This document shows positions 10,839 through 63,010 of a stretch of 64,000 nucleotides of DNA, one piece after another (position 1 is the stretch's first letter; every line of letters begins with the position of its first letter). The notes below the pieces were generated by a model. The model searched no databases. It had not been told where the DNA came from and saw only the letters and a program-made list of their open reading frames with translations. Both the position numbers and the translations under genes were made by a program. The DNA is from Candidatus Borrarchaeum weybense (lineage in GTDB: Archaea; Asgardarchaeota; Sifarchaeia; Borrarchaeales; Borrarchaeaceae), in contig JAHQJS010000005.1 of the NCBI GenBank assembly GCA_019057385.1, positions 128,699 to 192,698 of the forward strand, written 5' to 3'.

Positions 10839-11813
10839 ATGAGCCCCTTCGTCTCTATCCTTGTTCCTTGCTTAAACGAAGAAAATACTTTGCGTTCTCT
10901 TACAGGACGTGTTGAAAAGACTCTTGCTGGACTACAAAATATTCAATGCGAACTTATCTTTATAGATGATGGAAGTACAGACGAAACGGGGTCAATAATT
11001 GATCAATTAAGTCAAGAAATTCCATGGGTGAAGGCATATCATCATTCAACAACAAAAGGAAAATCTGCAGCCATAATGAACGGTTTTTACCATTCTAAAG
11101 GAAATATCATAATTCTATTAGATGCAGATCTGCAATTCTTTCCTGAAGACATTCCAGCAATCCTTTCAGAAATGACTCAGAAAAAATTAGATATTGTTAA
11201 TGGCTGGAGAAAGGAGCGAAAAGATCCTTTGTCCAGAAGGGCTGCATCTCGTCTCTATAATTCCTTTGCAAGTTCTCTCTTCGGACTAAAGGTTCATGAT
11301 TATAACTGTGGGATCAAAGGTCTAAAACGGGAGGTATTAGAATCCTTCAGATTAAGAAAAGGATATCATCGTTATATACTGGCCCTTGCAAAGCATCACG
11401 GGTTTCGTATAGGCGAAGTAGTAGTTCAACATGCCCCTCGCCCGTATGGAAAGTCTAGATACCGAACTAGTCGACTATTTGCAGGATTTGTGGATTTGAT
11501 GAGTTTAAAACTTCAATTCATGTTTATGGAGCGCCCCATGTCACTGTTTGGCGTGCTTGGCGCATTTATCTTCCTCCTCGGTCTTATTTCTGGAGCTTAT
11601 CTTGTATATCTTTGGTTTCTTGAAGGCGGTATTGGTACACGACCACTTCTCTTCCTTACAGTCCTCTTACTTGTTGCAGGCATTCAGTTTTTCTCATTTG
11701 GATTTTTAGCTGACGCAATTGCATCTTTAAAAACAGACGTTGATTATCTTAATCAATTAGTCATACAGAGGAAAGAAGAAAACACAAAAGGTCAATCACC
11801 CCCTAACAAGTGA
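10839..11813 (+). CDS. GT2 glycosyltransferase (ArnC/dolichol-phosphate type) with two C-terminal TM helices
   Basis: VPCLNEE, IDDGSTD, LDADLQ, HDYNCGIK; stop codon lies inside the adjacent element. Confidence 0.92.
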   Translation: MSPFVSILVPCLNEENTLRSLTGRVEKTLAGLQNIQCELIFIDDGSTDETGSIIDQLSQEIPWVKAYHHSTTKGKSAAIMNGFYHSKGNIIILLDADLQFFPEDIPAILSEMTQKKLDIVNGWRKERKDPLSRRAASRLYNSFASSLFGLKVHDYNCGIKGLKREVLESFRLRKGYHRYILALAKHHGFRIGEVVVQHAPRPYGKSRYRTSRLFAGFVDLMSLKLQFMFMERPMSLFGVLGAFIFLLGLISGAYLVYLWFLEGGIGTRPLLFLTVLLLVAGIQFFSFGFLADAIASLKTDVDYLNQLVIQRKEENTKGQSPPNK

Positions 11814-12199
11814 GGGGGCTTGTTCCGTGAGGAACAAGAGTAATTGGTTGATTAGCCTAAGAGAGGTCGTGGTGGAACACACATGACGGTATCTACGTTA
11901 TCAGGAGAGTTAAAGAACACACCAAGGGATGCTTCTCTAGTCCCGTGCTCTGTAAACGGTGGTTTAAACAGAGAGGAAACTCTCAGTGATCATCGTAGAG
12001 TACTGACTGATAACCTTGGCGAAGAGAACCTACTCCCCTGGTGTTGGGAGCGGCGGGACTTGCGAGTACCCGTTATTAAAACACCACCCGAGGTTGGGTA
12101 CACCAACCCCTGTCTTCGCAGAAAGGGTTGTGTGAGCAACGCTCGACCTCAATTCATGTATCCCCCCAACAAGTTGAGGGGTCTTCTTGCGAGGTAGTT
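11791..12199 (+). mobile_element. Non-autonomous IS200/IS605 element carrying a stand-alone IscB-type omegaRNA (HEARO-like), no iscB ORF
   Basis: GTCAATCACCCC..GGGGGCTTG, GTTGATTAGCCTAAG, CTACGTT, ACACC-GGATGCTTCTCTAGTCC, TAAACAG..CAGTG, AACCTTGGCGAAGAGA motif series; terminal AATTCAT-hairpin-TTCTTG-N10 then ATAAA. Confidence 0.85.
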
Positions 12200-12218
12200 A
12201 TAAAATGGTCTTCCTTTA

Positions 12219-13535
12219 TCAAATCTCGATAGTTTCTCCAACACGAGGAACAAATGTTTCAACACCCTCCTTTAGCTCCTGAACTCTTTTACTGAAAGCA
12301 AACGCCTTTTCTTTCTCGCCATGTACCACTATAACCCTTTTCAGGCCTTCTATTTCTGAAAGAATGCGCATGAGCCCGGCCTGATCGGCATGTGCACTAA
12401 ATTCAAAATGGTGTACTTTCGCGTTTATTTCTACTTTTTCACCGTCGATTTCTAATACACGTTCGCCTTCTTGAAGTTGACGACCTCGCGTTCCTTTTAC
12501 CATGTATCCAGTAAGACAAATGAGGTTTCGTTCATCATCTCCTAACTCTTTGAGATAACGTATTACCGGACCGCCTTGTACCATCCCGCTTGTTGTGATA
12601 ACAATAGCAGGTTGTTTTGTATTAATAAACTCGTCACGTTCAGAGGACGTTACTTCATGAAACATCTCAGATTCCCATGGTGACCTCTTAGTATATCTTA
12701 TTTGTCGGCGAATTTCAGGACGAAGATATAGCCAATATAACTTGTAGATTTCGTTCATTTTTCTTATCATTCCATCGATATAAACTGGCACTTCAGGTAA
12801 GAATCCGCTTCTCATGTAGGCCTCGATGGAGAGCATCGCCTGTTGAGCTCGTCCTGCCGCAAAAGCTGGAATAATGACTTTTCCTTGCCTCTTTAATGTG
12901 TTCTTAACAGCGAGTGCAAATTCTTTTTCGGTCTTTTTAAGATTGGGTAAACGATCATTAGGGTCACCATAAGTAGATTCAATAATCACAGTCTCTGTTG
13001 GTAAGGTGCTATCAGCTTGGTGAAGTGTTCTTGTATGGCGCGCGTTTACATCACCTGTGTAAAGAACAGTGTGCCCATCTATTTCTAGCCAAACCATGGC
13101 GCTCCCTAGAAGATGCCCTGAACGATATAAGATCATTTGTGCATTCGATACATCTAAAGGTACTCTGAATCGGACATCAACGGCATGAGATCTCATAGCT
13201 TGAACATCTTCTGCCTCATATGGACTTTCTTCGTGAGCTCTAGAAAGACGAAGATAATCGAAAACTAGCAGTTCAGTCATATCTTGTGTCACAGGCGTGG
13301 CGTAAATCGGACATTTGTATCGTTTTATGAGTGCAGGAGCGTGCCCAGAGTGATCTAAATGTGCATGTGTTAAGATCACAGCGTCTGGAGTATCAGGTAG
13401 CGGAAGAGGGTATCTATTTTCATCAGAAGCACCTAAATGCACACCAGCATCAAGAACTAACTTTGTGTCTTTGCTTTCCACAAATACACACGATCTACCG
13501 ACCTCTTGCGCTCCTCCTTGAAATGTAATGTTCAT
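12219..13535 (-). CDS. MBL-fold beta-CASP ribonuclease (archaeal CPSF-like, no KH domains)
   Basis: GGAQEVGRSC, THAHLDHSG, GHLLGSA, YTGD, ESTYG, FSAHAD, VHGE. Confidence 0.92.
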   Translation of the reverse strand: MNITFQGGAQEVGRSCVFVESKDTKLVLDAGVHLGASDENRYPLPLPDTPDAVILTHAHLDHSGHAPALIKRYKCPIYATPVTQDMTELLVFDYLRLSRAHEESPYEAEDVQAMRSHAVDVRFRVPLDVSNAQMILYRSGHLLGSAMVWLEIDGHTVLYTGDVNARHTRTLHQADSTLPTETVIIESTYGDPNDRLPNLKKTEKEFALAVKNTLKRQGKVIIPAFAAGRAQQAMLSIEAYMRSGFLPEVPVYIDGMIRKMNEIYKLYWLYLRPEIRRQIRYTKRSPWESEMFHEVTSSERDEFINTKQPAIVITTSGMVQGGPVIRYLKELGDDERNLICLTGYMVKGTRGRQLQEGERVLEIDGEKVEINAKVHHFEFSAHADQAGLMRILSEIEGLKRVIVVHGEKEKAFAFSKRVQELKEGVETFVPRVGETIEI

Positions 13536-13695
13536 TAAATCAACAGCCTCCATTCTTACTTTAAATGGCTTCATATAAAACAGTAATGAGTTAAATGAAA
13601 AAGTCAATCACTTTTATTTGTCAACTATAATATAATTATTAAAGGGATATTTAGAAAAAAAGATTTAGATAAAAATCGACTTATCTAAGAAACCG

Positions 13696-40031: not shown

Positions 40032-41399
40032 AGGTAACTAAGCAAGAAAGCCCATTCCTTCAGGGGTGGGATGAATTGTGGCAGTGTTCTTTTTCACTTT
40101 TATCACGTTCATCATGGTCTCCCTAATCGTTAAATAGTTCTGGTGGCTCTCTTAGTTATTACCAGAGGCTTCAACCTTGAGAAGGTCTAATACCTTTAAG
40201 TTATGTCCCACCAAAGAACAAGAGCAGGAGTTATTCAGGCGAGCGAATGCCTGTGCCTGCATGTGGAATCAGCTCAGCTACCAAAGACGGCAATCATTTT
40301 TCAACGGACAGATGGATTGGAATACTGATGACGCCTATCACCACTACAAGAAACTAATCGGTTCTGCTAGTGCCCAACAAATCATCCGAAAGAACAATGA
40401 GGCGTGGAAGTCCTTTTTTGCCTTATTAAAGCAAAAGAAGGCGAGGATACTCCCGTCTCATATCCATAGAATCCGACCTCCAGGCTATTGGAAGGATAGA
40501 CGCACAGGGAAGCGAAAACTCAAATATTTAGTACGTTGTGACAATTATTGCTTAAGCATCACGAAGCTAACACTTCCATTCAAATTGAAGTTGAAATGGA
40601 AGGGTAGTAACAAGTGGCGGGGCAAACAAGGGAGACTGGAAATTAGTTATGATGAACTCACAGGTCAGTGGTATGCCTTCATGCCGGTGGAGGTTGAGCC
40701 TCCACATCAGCCACAAGGAACAAAGAAGGCCTATGTTGATCTGGGAGTGAAAGTACCAATTATGGCAATGATAGACGACACTACGCAGGTGTTTGGCTAT
40801 CGAGCAAATTCTATATTGGCAGAGTGGTGGTACTGGAATTACAAACTAGCTAAACACGAATCGCTCTTGAAAACCACCAACGATGCACATACTTCTAAAG
40901 AGTTACGTTGGTTATACCGAAAGCGGAAGCGGAGATTTAGGGATGTGATAAACAAAGTAGTGAATGACTTTGTAGTGCGCTGTTGGTCACAAGGCGTATC
41001 AGAAATAGTATTAGGTGAGCTCACCAACATACGTGACTCAGCTCAATTCTCTAAGAAGTTGAACTCTATGATCCATCTGTTCTGGAGTCATCGCTATCTG
41101 GTGACACGCATCAAGGAAAAAGCCGAGGAATATGGTATCACCGTAAGGGAAATAGATGAACAAGGGACCTCCTCAGTATGTCCTCGATGTGCTGCTAAAA
41201 GAGTAGTACGGAAGGGTAGATTGTTCAATTGTCTACGGTGCAGACTTGAAGCCCATCGAGACGCCGTAGGTTGTGTCAATATAAGGCTCGCTCAGGGAGA
41301 CCATCTCGCTGCGGGAGTCATTAACAGGGCGGTGGCACGCCCCTCATTTCTCACCATAGAAGTGTAGAACCCCACTGCTTTAACTGTGGGAGTATGTCA
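40032..41399 (+). mobile_element. IS200/IS605-family element encoding TnpB only
   Basis: Left end AGGTAACTAAGCAAGAA-hairpin-GATGAATT after GTGAT; right-end hairpin ending GTCA; removal gives lysE a stop (..YQVHH*). Confidence 0.85.
40177..41367 (+). CDS. tnpB: TnpB RNA-guided endonuclease
   Basis: N-terminal KLCPTKEQ, RuvC-I YVDLG, RuvC-II VLGEL, TSSVCPRC..CLRC Zn finger, RuvC-III HRDAVGCVNI. Confidence 0.95.
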   Translation: MRRSNTFKLCPTKEQEQELFRRANACACMWNQLSYQRRQSFFNGQMDWNTDDAYHHYKKLIGSASAQQIIRKNNEAWKSFFALLKQKKARILPSHIHRIRPPGYWKDRRTGKRKLKYLVRCDNYCLSITKLTLPFKLKLKWKGSNKWRGKQGRLEISYDELTGQWYAFMPVEVEPPHQPQGTKKAYVDLGVKVPIMAMIDDTTQVFGYRANSILAEWWYWNYKLAKHESLLKTTNDAHTSKELRWLYRKRKRRFRDVINKVVNDFVVRCWSQGVSEIVLGELTNIRDSAQFSKKLNSMIHLFWSHRYLVTRIKEKAEEYGITVREIDEQGTSSVCPRCAAKRVVRKGRLFNCLRCRLEAHRDAVGCVNIRLAQGDHLAAGVINRAVARPSFLTIEV

Positions 41400-52411: not shown

Positions 52412-52534
52412 GGACCTTCAGCATTCAGGTTTCCCATCTGCTCTCGCAAGGTAGTACTCCCACGAACGTCTCCAGACTTAACTTCTGAGTTCGGCCGGGA
52501 TCAGGTGTGGCCCTGGAGCGATGGCCGAAGATCC
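52412..52534 (-). rRNA. 5S rRNA (stand-alone)
   Basis: GGATCTTC..GAAGGTCC terminal helix, CACACCTGATCCC, CCGAAC, GAAGTTAAG, AGTACT, GGGAAAC; upstream TTTATATA. Confidence 0.95.
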
Positions 52535-55913: not shown

Positions 55914-56016
55914 GCCGCCGTAGCTCAGCTGGTAGAGCGTTGGACTTGTAATCCAATGACAGTTCTGCTATTCGCATAACTGGTGGAAGTCGAGGGTTCA
56001 AATCCCTCCGGCGGCT
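55914..56016 (+). tRNA. tRNA-Thr(TGT), one intron at 45/46
   Basis: GCCGCCG/CGGCGGC, TTGGA-CTTGTAA-TCCAA; 30-nt insertion 55959-55988. Confidence 0.93.
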
Positions 56017-62873: not shown

Positions 62874-63010
62874 GCCCCGATAGCTCAGCTGGTAGAGCGC
62901 GACCTTGGTAAGGTCGAGTTGTCTTCGGAACTCCCGAAGGTGCGAGAAGTCGCGGGTTCGAAGGAAATTTGAGCGGAGCGCTCTTTCCGAAACACCCGCT
63001 CGGGGCTCCA
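62874..63010 (+). tRNA. tRNA-Thr(GGT), two introns (45/46, 59/60)
   Basis: GCCCCGA/TCGGGGC, CGACC-TTGGTAA-GGTCG, encoded CCA; introns 62919-62948, 62963-62993. Confidence 0.92.

What the first reader, a model, noticed from the sequence alone, without database searches (positions are those of the whole stretch)
11771..12204. Orphan IscB-type omegaRNA packaged as a mobile cassette, with its guide drawn from a glycosyltransferase 3' end
Seen: a HEARO-like motif series followed by a transposon end and ATAAA, with no PLMP/HNH/RuvC ORF. Established: IscB guides lie 5' of the scaffold and the TAM lies 3' of the target. Inference: the guide is about GAAAGAAGAAAACACAAAAG, made by read-through of the GT2 mRNA, and acts in trans with an IscB/IsrB elsewhere. 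The element also supplies the GT2 stop codon.
Basis: partly seen in the sequence, partly recalled or inferred. Interest (0 to 1): 0.7.

Follow-up and report, generated by a model that had tools for sequence, protein, structure and literature searches.

The report
Nuclease-less IscB guide-RNA mini-transposon
A 409-base mobile element that carries only the guide-RNA scaffold of an IscB (Cas9-ancestor) nuclease has landed in the last codons of a glycosyltransferase gene of an Asgard archaeon; it is a clean example of an already described kind of element.

Summary
Window 11791-12033 (+) is a full-length HEARO/IscB omegaRNA (Rfam RF02033, 128.7 bits, E 2.5e-26). It lies in a 409-bp protein-less IS200/IS605 (ISC-type) element, 11791-12199.

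- **Copies:** the genome (Asgard, Borrarchaeum-like) has 36 HEARO loci. Sixteen sit beside an IscB gene; 20 are solo.
- **Insertion site:** three congeneric genomes keep the empty site ...GAAAGAAGAAAACACAAAAG|ATAAAA.
- **GT2 stop:** GT2 now ends at a TGA inside the element (11811-11813). The native end (KDKKD*) was lost with a 51-bp stretch between two ATAAAA repeats.
- **Candidate partners:** two intact IscB genes elsewhere have 93-95% identical scaffolds and the same ATAAA flank.
- **Transposition machinery:** one TnpA is present, and about 40 TnpB elements share the end type.

Read-through transcription and trans activity are not shown. They fit the geometry: no T-run of 4 or more in the element, and a scaffold better conserved than the rest of the element.

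Protein-less omegaRNA elements, trans-acting standalone omegaRNAs and N|ATGA or ATAA targets are all published. This scan also reported sister copies on other DNA of the same genome. Verdict: real, correctly read, a new member of a known kind.

The parts
10839..11813 (+). Family-2 glycosyltransferase gene (324 aa). Its last 7 codons and its TGA stop (11811-11813) lie inside the element.
   Evidence: ORF list. Pfam Glycos_transf_2, E 5e-29. The C-terminus is ...KEENTKGQSPPNK*, against ...KEENTKDKKD* in congeners.
11771..11790 (+). Guide-equivalent host flank GAAAGAAGAAAACACAAAAG, immediately 5' of the scaffold.
   Evidence: Flanks of sister copies are unrelated up to this junction. The 20-mer is identical in the G004 empty allele, where ATAAA follows it. 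Its last 16 nt occur once in the genome.
11791..12199 (+). Protein-less non-autonomous IS200/IS605 (ISC-type) element, 409 bp.
   Evidence: Nine full-length sister copies at 84-93% identity at other loci. Absent from the orthologous site in G001, G002 and G004.
11791..12033 (+). IscB omegaRNA scaffold (HEARO). The first stem-loop (CCCCCT 11799-11804 / AGGGGG 11813-11818) doubles as the RE-type transposon hairpin.
   Evidence: RF02033 at 128.7 bits, model positions 1-211. The reverse complement of the end resembles the RE of the TnpA-TnpB element.
12033..12074 (+). 3' extension of the omegaRNA: hairpin 1 (12033-12050) and hairpin 2 (12052-12074). Hairpin 2 carries in its loop the remnant of the iscB TTG start.
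   Evidence: Aligns to the SD/start region of full-length elements, with compensatory stem changes: GATAGG/CCTATC becomes GACGGG/CCCGTC, and CTTTAAC/GTTAAAG becomes CTCCC/GGGAG. Most conserved segment, 0.92 mean pairwise identity.
12075..12155 (+). Solo-specific structured module, absent from IscB-bearing elements.
   Evidence: Found only next to solo HEARO copies and at one contig edge. No match in full-length elements. The predicted hairpin shows compensatory changes.
12156..12199 (+). Far (LE-type) transposon end: hairpin 12162-12181, then TCTTCTTGCGAGGTAGTT.
   Evidence: Shared with three IscB-bearing elements. Shared in reverse orientation with sequences upstream of tnpB genes, e.g. C5:285492-285544 before a tnpB whose TNB-domain hit is at C5:286532. 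Hairpin pairs covary.
12200..12204 (+). ATAAA, the transposon-adjacent motif (host DNA).
   Evidence: Present at the empty site in G004 and G002. All 10 copies with a TCTT-type end (the TCTTCTTGCG end and four variants of it) are followed by ATAAA.
12219..13607 (-). Convergent neighbour: metallo-beta-lactamase/beta-CASP ribonuclease gene. Its stop lies 19 nt beyond the element.
   Evidence: ORF list. Pfam Beta-Casp, Lactamase_B and RMMBL.

Best explanation
Window 11791-12199 is a non-autonomous, protein-less member of the IscB (ISC) branch of IS200/IS605 transposons.

**Anatomy (shown).** It keeps both TnpA-type subterminal hairpin ends and a complete IscB omegaRNA scaffold, but iscB is replaced by a short structured module. 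It inserted without target duplication between ...CACAAAAG and ATAAA, in the last codons of a GT2 gene and in the same orientation as that gene. The site later, or earlier, lost 51 bp between two ATAAAA repeats. The native stop codon and the intergenic hairpin went with it, so GT2 now terminates in the element's first hairpin.

**Mechanism (inferred).**
1. Transcripts that start upstream, i.e. the GT2 mRNA, run into the element and yield an omegaRNA whose 5' guide is the GT2 3' end.
2. An IscB made elsewhere loads this RNA. The likely partners are the ATAAA-type genes at G000:C4:846035-847246 and next to the scaffold at C6:904550.
3. The complex cuts any allele that has the guide sequence followed by ATAAA, i.e. 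the empty or excised site. Repair from an occupied copy then restores or spreads the element.
4. Mobility depends on the single TnpA in the genome, acting in trans.
For: **Shown**
- HEARO hit at 128.7 bits.
- 36 HEARO loci: 16 with an adjacent RRXRR+HNH IscB of about 401 aa, 20 solo. The IscB matches solved IscB structures, E 1e-47 to 1e-39.
- Sharp junctions and unrelated flanks among 9 sister copies.
- Empty sites in three congeners read guide|ATAAA. The 20-nt guide is identical in G004.
- A sister ATAAA-type copy has scarless empty sites.
- Three IscB-bearing elements share this end type and the ATAAA flank, with scaffolds 93-96% identical to this one. Two of their genes are intact.
- The end type covaries with the flank motif in Watson-Crick fashion (TCTT with ATAAA, TCTC with ATGA), as expected for TnpA DNA-guide recognition.
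- One Y1 TnpA is present, and tnpB elements share the far end.

**Supporting the inferred steps**
- The GT2 ORF reads 23 nt into the scaffold, and the element has no T-run of 4 or more.
- The scaffold and its 3' hairpins are better conserved among copies (0.90-0.92) than the module and far end (0.73-0.74).

**Literature**
- IscB guides require transcription from outside the element; PATE-like omegaRNA-only elements exist; the TAMs there are TTTAT and TTCAT (PMC10055086).
- Standalone omegaRNAs function with IscB (PMC9581776).
- ISC termini begin GTCA, targets are N|ATGA or ATAA, and ends are shared with antisense TnpB elements (PMC4810608).
Against: - There is no transcript, processing or cleavage evidence for this copy or for any copy in this organism.
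- Genome-wide co-orientation with the upstream gene is only 19 against 10, and my random control for it was flawed.
- The guide has no other plausible target in this genome; the best candidate has 2 mismatches in 16. Any activity would matter only after excision or on incoming DNA.
- Only one tnpA exists, and its own ends differ in sequence from these, so current mobility is unproven.
- The 51-bp loss shows that the locus has changed beyond a simple insertion.
Confidence: 0.65

Rival explanations
1. Inert relic. The element is a real ISC-derived mini-transposon, but its omegaRNA is no longer made or used. It is simply decaying DNA that happens to end the GT2 gene.
For: - No nuclease gene in cis.
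- The target is absent from the genome.
- The site has suffered a further 51-bp deletion.
- There is a single tnpA.
- Some sister copies score lower against the HEARO model, 94-105 bits.
Against: - The scaffold still scores 128.7 bits, within the range of IscB-linked copies (121-135).
- The scaffold and its 3' hairpins are more conserved than the rest of the element.
- Stems keep compensatory changes.
- Intact cognate IscB genes exist.
Confidence: 0.28
2. Domesticated host element. The structured RNA now serves the host as a 3' UTR, stabiliser or terminator of the GT2 mRNA. Alternatively it shields the convergent RNase gene, having replaced the lost intergenic hairpin.
For: - The native stop and the intergenic hairpin were lost, and the element supplies the stop.
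- In five elements genome-wide, this one included, the host ORF ends inside the element.
Against: - The element is absent at this site in three congeners, so the insertion is young.
- The same element sits at many unrelated sites.
- It contains no oligo-T terminator.
Confidence: 0.05
3. Chance resemblance to HEARO, not a real RNA gene.
For: None beyond the absence of a neighbouring IscB.
Against: E 2.5e-26 over the full model. There are 35 paralogous hits, 16 directly upstream of IscB genes.
Confidence: 0.01

Closest known systems
PATE-like, omegaRNA-only derivatives of IscB/TnpB IS elements in Geobacillus stearothermophilus (ISGst families; Meers et al. 2023, PMC10055086)
   Same: - Protein-less element with both IS200/IS605 ends and an omegaRNA.
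- Many copies alongside nuclease-bearing relatives.
- A single TnpA in the genome.
- End types shared between IscB and TnpB elements.
- AT-rich TAMs: TTTAT and TTCAT there, and their complements ATAAA and ATGA(A) here.
- The guide lies outside the element, so outside transcription is needed.
   Different: - The host is an Asgard archaeon, not a Firmicute.
- iscB is replaced by a conserved module of about 80 nt shared by solo subfamilies.
- This copy sits inside a host ORF end and is accompanied by a 51-bp host deletion.
- Nothing has been tested experimentally here.
ISC transposons (Kapitonov, Makarova and Koonin 2016, PMC4810608)
   Same: - 5' terminus GTCA.
- Subterminal hairpins, and no target-site duplication.
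- Insertion at N|ATGA, with ATAA and ATCA variants.
- Termini shared with TnpB elements in the opposite orientation.
- Mostly non-autonomous.
   Different: ISC elements are defined by carrying iscB, and this copy has none. The ATAAA subtype with a matching end-base change is a local variant.
Standalone omegaRNAs of OMEGA systems (Altae-Tran et al. 2021, read here only through its citation in Hirano et al. 2022, PMC9581776)
   Same: An IscB-type omegaRNA not adjacent to a nuclease gene, proposed to work in trans with IscB encoded elsewhere.
   Different: I could not read the primary paper, and trans function is not tested for this system.
HEARO RNA, Rfam RF02033
   Same: Full-length match above the gathering score, including the pseudoknot-forming segments.
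   Different: There is no associated HNH ORF at this locus. The real RNA extends about 40 nt beyond the model (two more hairpins), as Meers et al. also noted for RF02033.

Membership tests
HEARO / IscB omegaRNA (RF02033) | Covariance-model score at or above the gathering threshold over the whole model | tested here: met
   128.7 bits against 83, model positions 1-211, E 2.5e-26.
HEARO / IscB omegaRNA (RF02033) | Lies directly upstream of an IscB (RRXRR + HNH) ORF | tested here: not met
   No such ORF at this locus. The feature is met for 16 paralogous copies in the genome. This copy keeps only the start-region remnant.
HEARO / IscB omegaRNA (RF02033) | Variable guide segment 5' of the scaffold, outside the element boundary | tested here: met
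   Flanks are unrelated up to 11790 in all copies. The same 20 nt are host sequence in the empty alleles.
IS200/IS605 superfamily, non-autonomous (PATE-like / ISC-derived) | Subterminal imperfect hairpins at both ends, no terminal inverted repeats, no target-site duplication | tested here: met
   Hairpins at 11799-11818 and 12162-11181 region (12162-12181). The flanks AAAAG and ATAAA are not duplicated. A sister copy has scarless empty sites.
IS200/IS605 superfamily, non-autonomous (PATE-like / ISC-derived) | Insertion next to a conserved 4-5-nt motif that stays outside the element | tested here: met
   ATAAA follows 10 of 10 copies with this end type; ATGA follows the other type. ATAAA pre-exists at the empty site.
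IS200/IS605 superfamily, non-autonomous (PATE-like / ISC-derived) | A Y1 (TnpA) transposase available in the genome | tested here: met
   One Y1_Tnp gene, at C7:194221-194586, next to a tnpB. Whether it acts on these ends is not tested.
IS200/IS605 superfamily, non-autonomous (PATE-like / ISC-derived) | Evidence of mobility: multiple copies at different sites and presence/absence between genomes | tested here: met
   At least 9 sister copies in the genome. The site is empty in G001, G002 and G004.
Trans-acting standalone omegaRNA | The RNA is expressed, loaded by an IscB encoded elsewhere, and directs TAM-dependent cleavage | not testable with these tools
   Only the prerequisites are shown: intact cognate IscB genes, a matching TAM and a conserved scaffold.

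The most novel reading that the evidence does not exclude
The protein-less copies are not decay products but a selected lineage.

- They have swapped iscB for a conserved structured module.
- That module stays 93% identical between solo subfamilies whose scaffolds have diverged beyond blastn detection.
- They outnumber the nuclease-bearing copies, 20 to 16.
- Together they act as a dispersed library of trans-acting guides for a few IscB nucleases in an Asgard archaeon.

On this reading, the 51-bp loss between two ATAAAA motifs at this copy is a footprint of element activity. It could come from TnpA using a second target motif, or from an IscB cut repaired by microhomology. It would not be ordinary slippage.
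Probability: 0.15. Interest if true: 0.55.

Novelty: new member of a known kind. Interest (0 to 1): 0.3.

Why it matters
This is a well-resolved natural example with three features in one locus.

- Exact junctions and an empty allele in a sister species.
- A guide and TAM that can be read off directly.
- Identifiable candidate partner nucleases.

It shows an IscB guide RNA surviving without its nuclease in an Asgard archaeon. It gives a ready-made test pair for trans loading: this solo omegaRNA plus an ATAAA-type IscB of about 403 aa. It also shows how such elements remodel host gene ends, here through a new stop codon, a new C-terminus and the loss of the intergenic hairpin. It does not reveal a new mechanism.

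Tried and rejected
- **Coding ORF inside the element (11883-12197, 104 aa).** No Pfam hit, and the frame is broken in four of the nine sister copies. Rejected.
- **Simple internal deletion of a full-length element.** Only the scaffold, the start-region remnant and the far end match the IscB-bearing copies. The stretch 12075-12155 has no counterpart there. The origin of the module stays unknown.
- **Other Rfam families in 11500-12500.** None at E up to 1.
- **A second genomic target for the guide.** None; the best has 2 mismatches in 16 and is followed by ATAAGA.
- **Genome-wide orientation bias as support for read-through.**
  - The nearest upstream gene is co-oriented in 19 cases and divergent in 10.
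  - All 14 elements within 100 nt of a gene end abut the 3' end of a co-oriented gene.
  - My random-position control was biased by how ORFs were cut, so I draw no statistical conclusion.
- **Whether adjacent deletions recur.**
  - One other ATAAA-type copy has clean empty sites.
  - Another has no conserved flanks in the congeners.
  - The 51-bp loss is therefore not general.
- **Insertion at the second ATAAAA with loss of the left-hand 51 bp.** There is no microhomology at that junction, so this is less likely than a deletion between the two ATAAAA repeats.
- **Altae-Tran et al. 2021.** The paper could not be read.
- **ARAGORN on the window.** It found no tRNA.

Full report
**Observation**

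Rfam/Infernal places a complete HEARO RNA (RF02033, the IscB omegaRNA) at window 11791-12033 on the + strand. It scores 128.7 bits against a gathering score of 83, with E 2.5e-26, covers model positions 1-211 and is not truncated. No other RNA family matches between 11500 and 12500. The only ORF inside (11883-12197, 104 aa) has no Pfam domain, and its frame is interrupted in several sister copies. The GT2 gene (10839-11813; Glycos_transf_2, E 5e-29) runs 23 nt into the scaffold and stops at TGA 11811-11813.

**Extent of the element**

- blastn of 11700-12300 against the whole genome finds nine other full-length copies at 84-93% identity.
- In their alignment, similarity starts abruptly at GTCAATCACCCC (window 11791). 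It ends after the subterminal hairpin and an 18-19-nt tail (window 12199).
- Mean pairwise identity is 0.29 in the left flank and 0.90 in the scaffold. It is 0.92 in the next 42 nt, 0.74 in 12076-12155, 0.73 in the far end and 0.28 in the right flank.

The element is therefore 11791-12199, 409 bp.

**Genome context**

The assembly (4.18 Mb, 8 contigs, about 37% G+C) has 36 HEARO hits.
- Sixteen are followed within 28-75 nt by an RRXRR-domain gene. The one scanned in full (403 aa) also has an HNH domain and matches solved IscB structures at E 1e-47 to 1e-39.
- Twenty are solo. Nineteen of these share the architecture of the window copy, and one is a truncated full-length element.
- There is one Y1 transposase gene (C7:194221-194586), next to a tnpB.
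- There are about 40 tnpB loci, one of them in this window near 41.1 kb.
- The closest IscB relatives in public genomes are from Candidatus Borrarchaeum, other Borrarchaeota/Promethearchaeota, Sifarchaeum and Heimdallarchaeota MAGs (taxonomy). The host is therefore an Asgard archaeon of a Borrarchaeum-like genus.

**Empty sites**

Three genomes of the same genus carry the orthologous GT2 / beta-CASP RNase junction without the element.
- G004 reads ...GAAAGAAGAAAACACAAAAG|ATAAAAAGGACTAA..., and G002 is similar.
An ATAAA that pre-exists in the target follows them directly.
- There is no target-site duplication.
- A second ATAAA-type solo copy (C7:348633) has scarless empty sites in G002, G003 and G004, again just 5' of AT[AGT]AAA.

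**A secondary change at this locus**

In the congeners, GT2 ends ...KEENTKDKKD*. About 35 nt of spacer with a small hairpin follow, then a second (A)ATAAAAT motif just beyond the convergent RNase gene. In the window, the right flank (ATAAAATGGTCTTCC...) corresponds to that second motif. The 51-53 bp between the two ATAAAA repeats are missing. Three outgroups agree, so the loss happened in this lineage.

The simplest account is insertion at the first ATAAA plus a deletion between the 6-bp direct repeats, in either order. If the deletion came second, the lost DNA was already redundant, because the element supplied a stop codon. Insertion at the second motif with loss of the left 51 bp is less likely, because that junction has no microhomology. 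The consequence is a new GT2 C-terminus (GQSPPNK* instead of DKKD*) and loss of the native intergenic hairpin.

**Anatomy of the element**

1. *11791-12033, the Rfam scaffold.* Its first stem-loop (CCCCCT/AGGGGG) is also the transposon's RE-type hairpin. The reverse complement of this end (...GGGGGTGATTGAC) resembles the RE of the TnpA-TnpB element (...GGGGTAGTTCAC).
2. *12033-12074, two further hairpins.* They align with the Shine-Dalgarno/start region of the full-length elements. The stems are kept by compensatory changes (CTTTAAC/GTTAAAG against CTCCC/GGGAG, and GATAGG/CCTATC against GACGGG/CCCGTC). The iscB TTG start lies in the second loop. Meers et al. also noted that RF02033 lacks downstream structural elements.
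3. *12075-12155, a module found only in solo copies*.
   - It has a predicted hairpin with compensatory changes.
   - It is 93% identical between solo subfamilies whose scaffolds no longer match by blastn.
   - The elements are therefore mosaic.
4. *12156-12199, the far end.* It is shared with three IscB-bearing elements. In reverse orientation it is shared with sequences just upstream of tnpB genes. It is thus the LE in the TnpA frame, as Kapitonov et al. described for ISC and IS605 pairs.

**Two end types and two flank motifs**

- Copies whose far end reads TCTTCTTGCG (or one of four close variants that keep TCTT) are followed by ATAAA. That holds for 10 of 10: seven solos and three IscB-bearing elements.
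- Copies reading TCTCCTTGAG or TCTCCAGAGG are followed by ATGA. That covers ten solos, plus the IscB-bearing copies of that end type, whose flanks read RTGA. One solo has ATCA and one has TTAA.
- On the complementary strand this is A with T against G with C. That is the behaviour expected if a subterminal DNA guide base pairs with the target motif, as in the IS608 paradigm. The paradigm is my own knowledge; Meers et al. describe the same TAM and DNA-guide logic.
- Their G. stearothermophilus TAMs, TTTAT and TTCAT, are the complements of ATAAA and ATGAA.

**Candidate partners**

The three IscB-bearing elements of the ATAAA type have scaffolds 93-96% identical to the window copy.
- Two have intact genes of 403-404 aa: C4:846035-847246 and the gene next to C6:904550.
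- The third (C6:787599-788111) has an in-frame TGA.

**What is inferred**

- *Transcription.* The GT2 mRNA must contain the guide and the first 23 nt of the scaffold. There is no T-run of four or more in the element to stop an archaeal polymerase. Meers et al. state that IscB omegaRNA biogenesis relies on transcription from outside the element and report an orientation bias.
- *Orientation in this genome.* Every one of the 14 elements lying within 100 nt of a gene end abuts the 3' end of a co-oriented gene. In five of them, this one included, the host ORF ends inside the element. The overall count is only 19 to 10, and my random control was flawed.
- *Trans loading.* Standalone omegaRNAs working with IscB are reported in the literature. 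The better conservation of the scaffold than of the rest of the element fits selection on the RNA.
- *Target.* The guide has no other credible target in this genome. The expected substrate is the empty allele, whether after excision or on DNA from a relative such as G004.

**Comparison and verdict**

All defining features of a non-autonomous ISC/IS605 element are met, and so is the RNA family threshold. The one HEARO feature not met is the neighbouring ORF, which is the point of the finding. The following are all published:
- protein-less omegaRNA elements;
- trans use of omegaRNAs;
- GTCA termini;
- N|ATGA or ATAA targets;
- ends shared with antisense TnpB elements.

Earlier agents of this scan reported sister copies on other pieces of this genome. 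This is a correct reading of a real element, and a new member of a known kind. The local particulars are the 51-bp repeat-bounded host deletion, the stop codon donated by the RE hairpin, the exact guide+TAM match in a sister species and the solo-specific module.

Noticed in passing
window about 41089-41283 (+) (G000:C5:169787-169981): A TnpB gene (Cas12f1-like TNB domain hit, open frame 403 aa) lies in the same window. It is one of about 40 tnpB loci in the genome, against a single tnpA.
   Followed up: partly
window 12182-12204 and sister copies genome-wide: The fourth base of the far-end motif TCT[T/C]CTTG covaries with the flank: T goes with ATAAA (10 of 10) and C or A with ATGA. This is Watson-Crick on the TnpA strand and suggests a DNA-guide base that sets the target motif.
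   Followed up: partly
window 12075-12155; also G000:C5:392674-392793, C7:566656-566775 and C4:921433-921554: A solo-specific structured module is up to 93% identical between solo subfamilies whose HEARO parts have diverged beyond blastn detection. The elements therefore look mosaic or recombinant. The origin and role of the module are unknown.
   Followed up: partly
window 12052-12074; full-length elements, e.g. L039 around 1470-1500: The TTG start codon of iscB lies in the loop of a hairpin. The stem is conserved by compensatory changes, and the solo copies keep it. This may couple omegaRNA structure to iscB translation.
   Followed up: no
window 11727-11734: A TATA-like TTTAAAAA lies inside the GT2 coding sequence, 57-64 nt upstream of the element. 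It is conserved in congeners as coding sequence. If used, it would give a leader of about 30-35 nt.
   Followed up: no
window 55914-56016 (+) and 62874-62932 (+): The Rfam tRNA hit at 55914-56016 is 103 nt long, probably an intron-bearing archaeal tRNA. The hit at 62874-62932 is only 59 nt and scores at threshold. ARAGORN reports no tRNA in the window.
   Followed up: no
window 52413-52532 (-): A 5S rRNA gene with no large-subunit rRNA hit beside it in the Rfam scan.
   Followed up: no
G000:C4:705319-705994: A solo HEARO element (C4:705743-705994) sits directly upstream of an IscB-bearing element (C4:705319-705554) on the same strand. The flank after the solo copy's ATAAA therefore runs into the guide region of the next element.
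   Followed up: no
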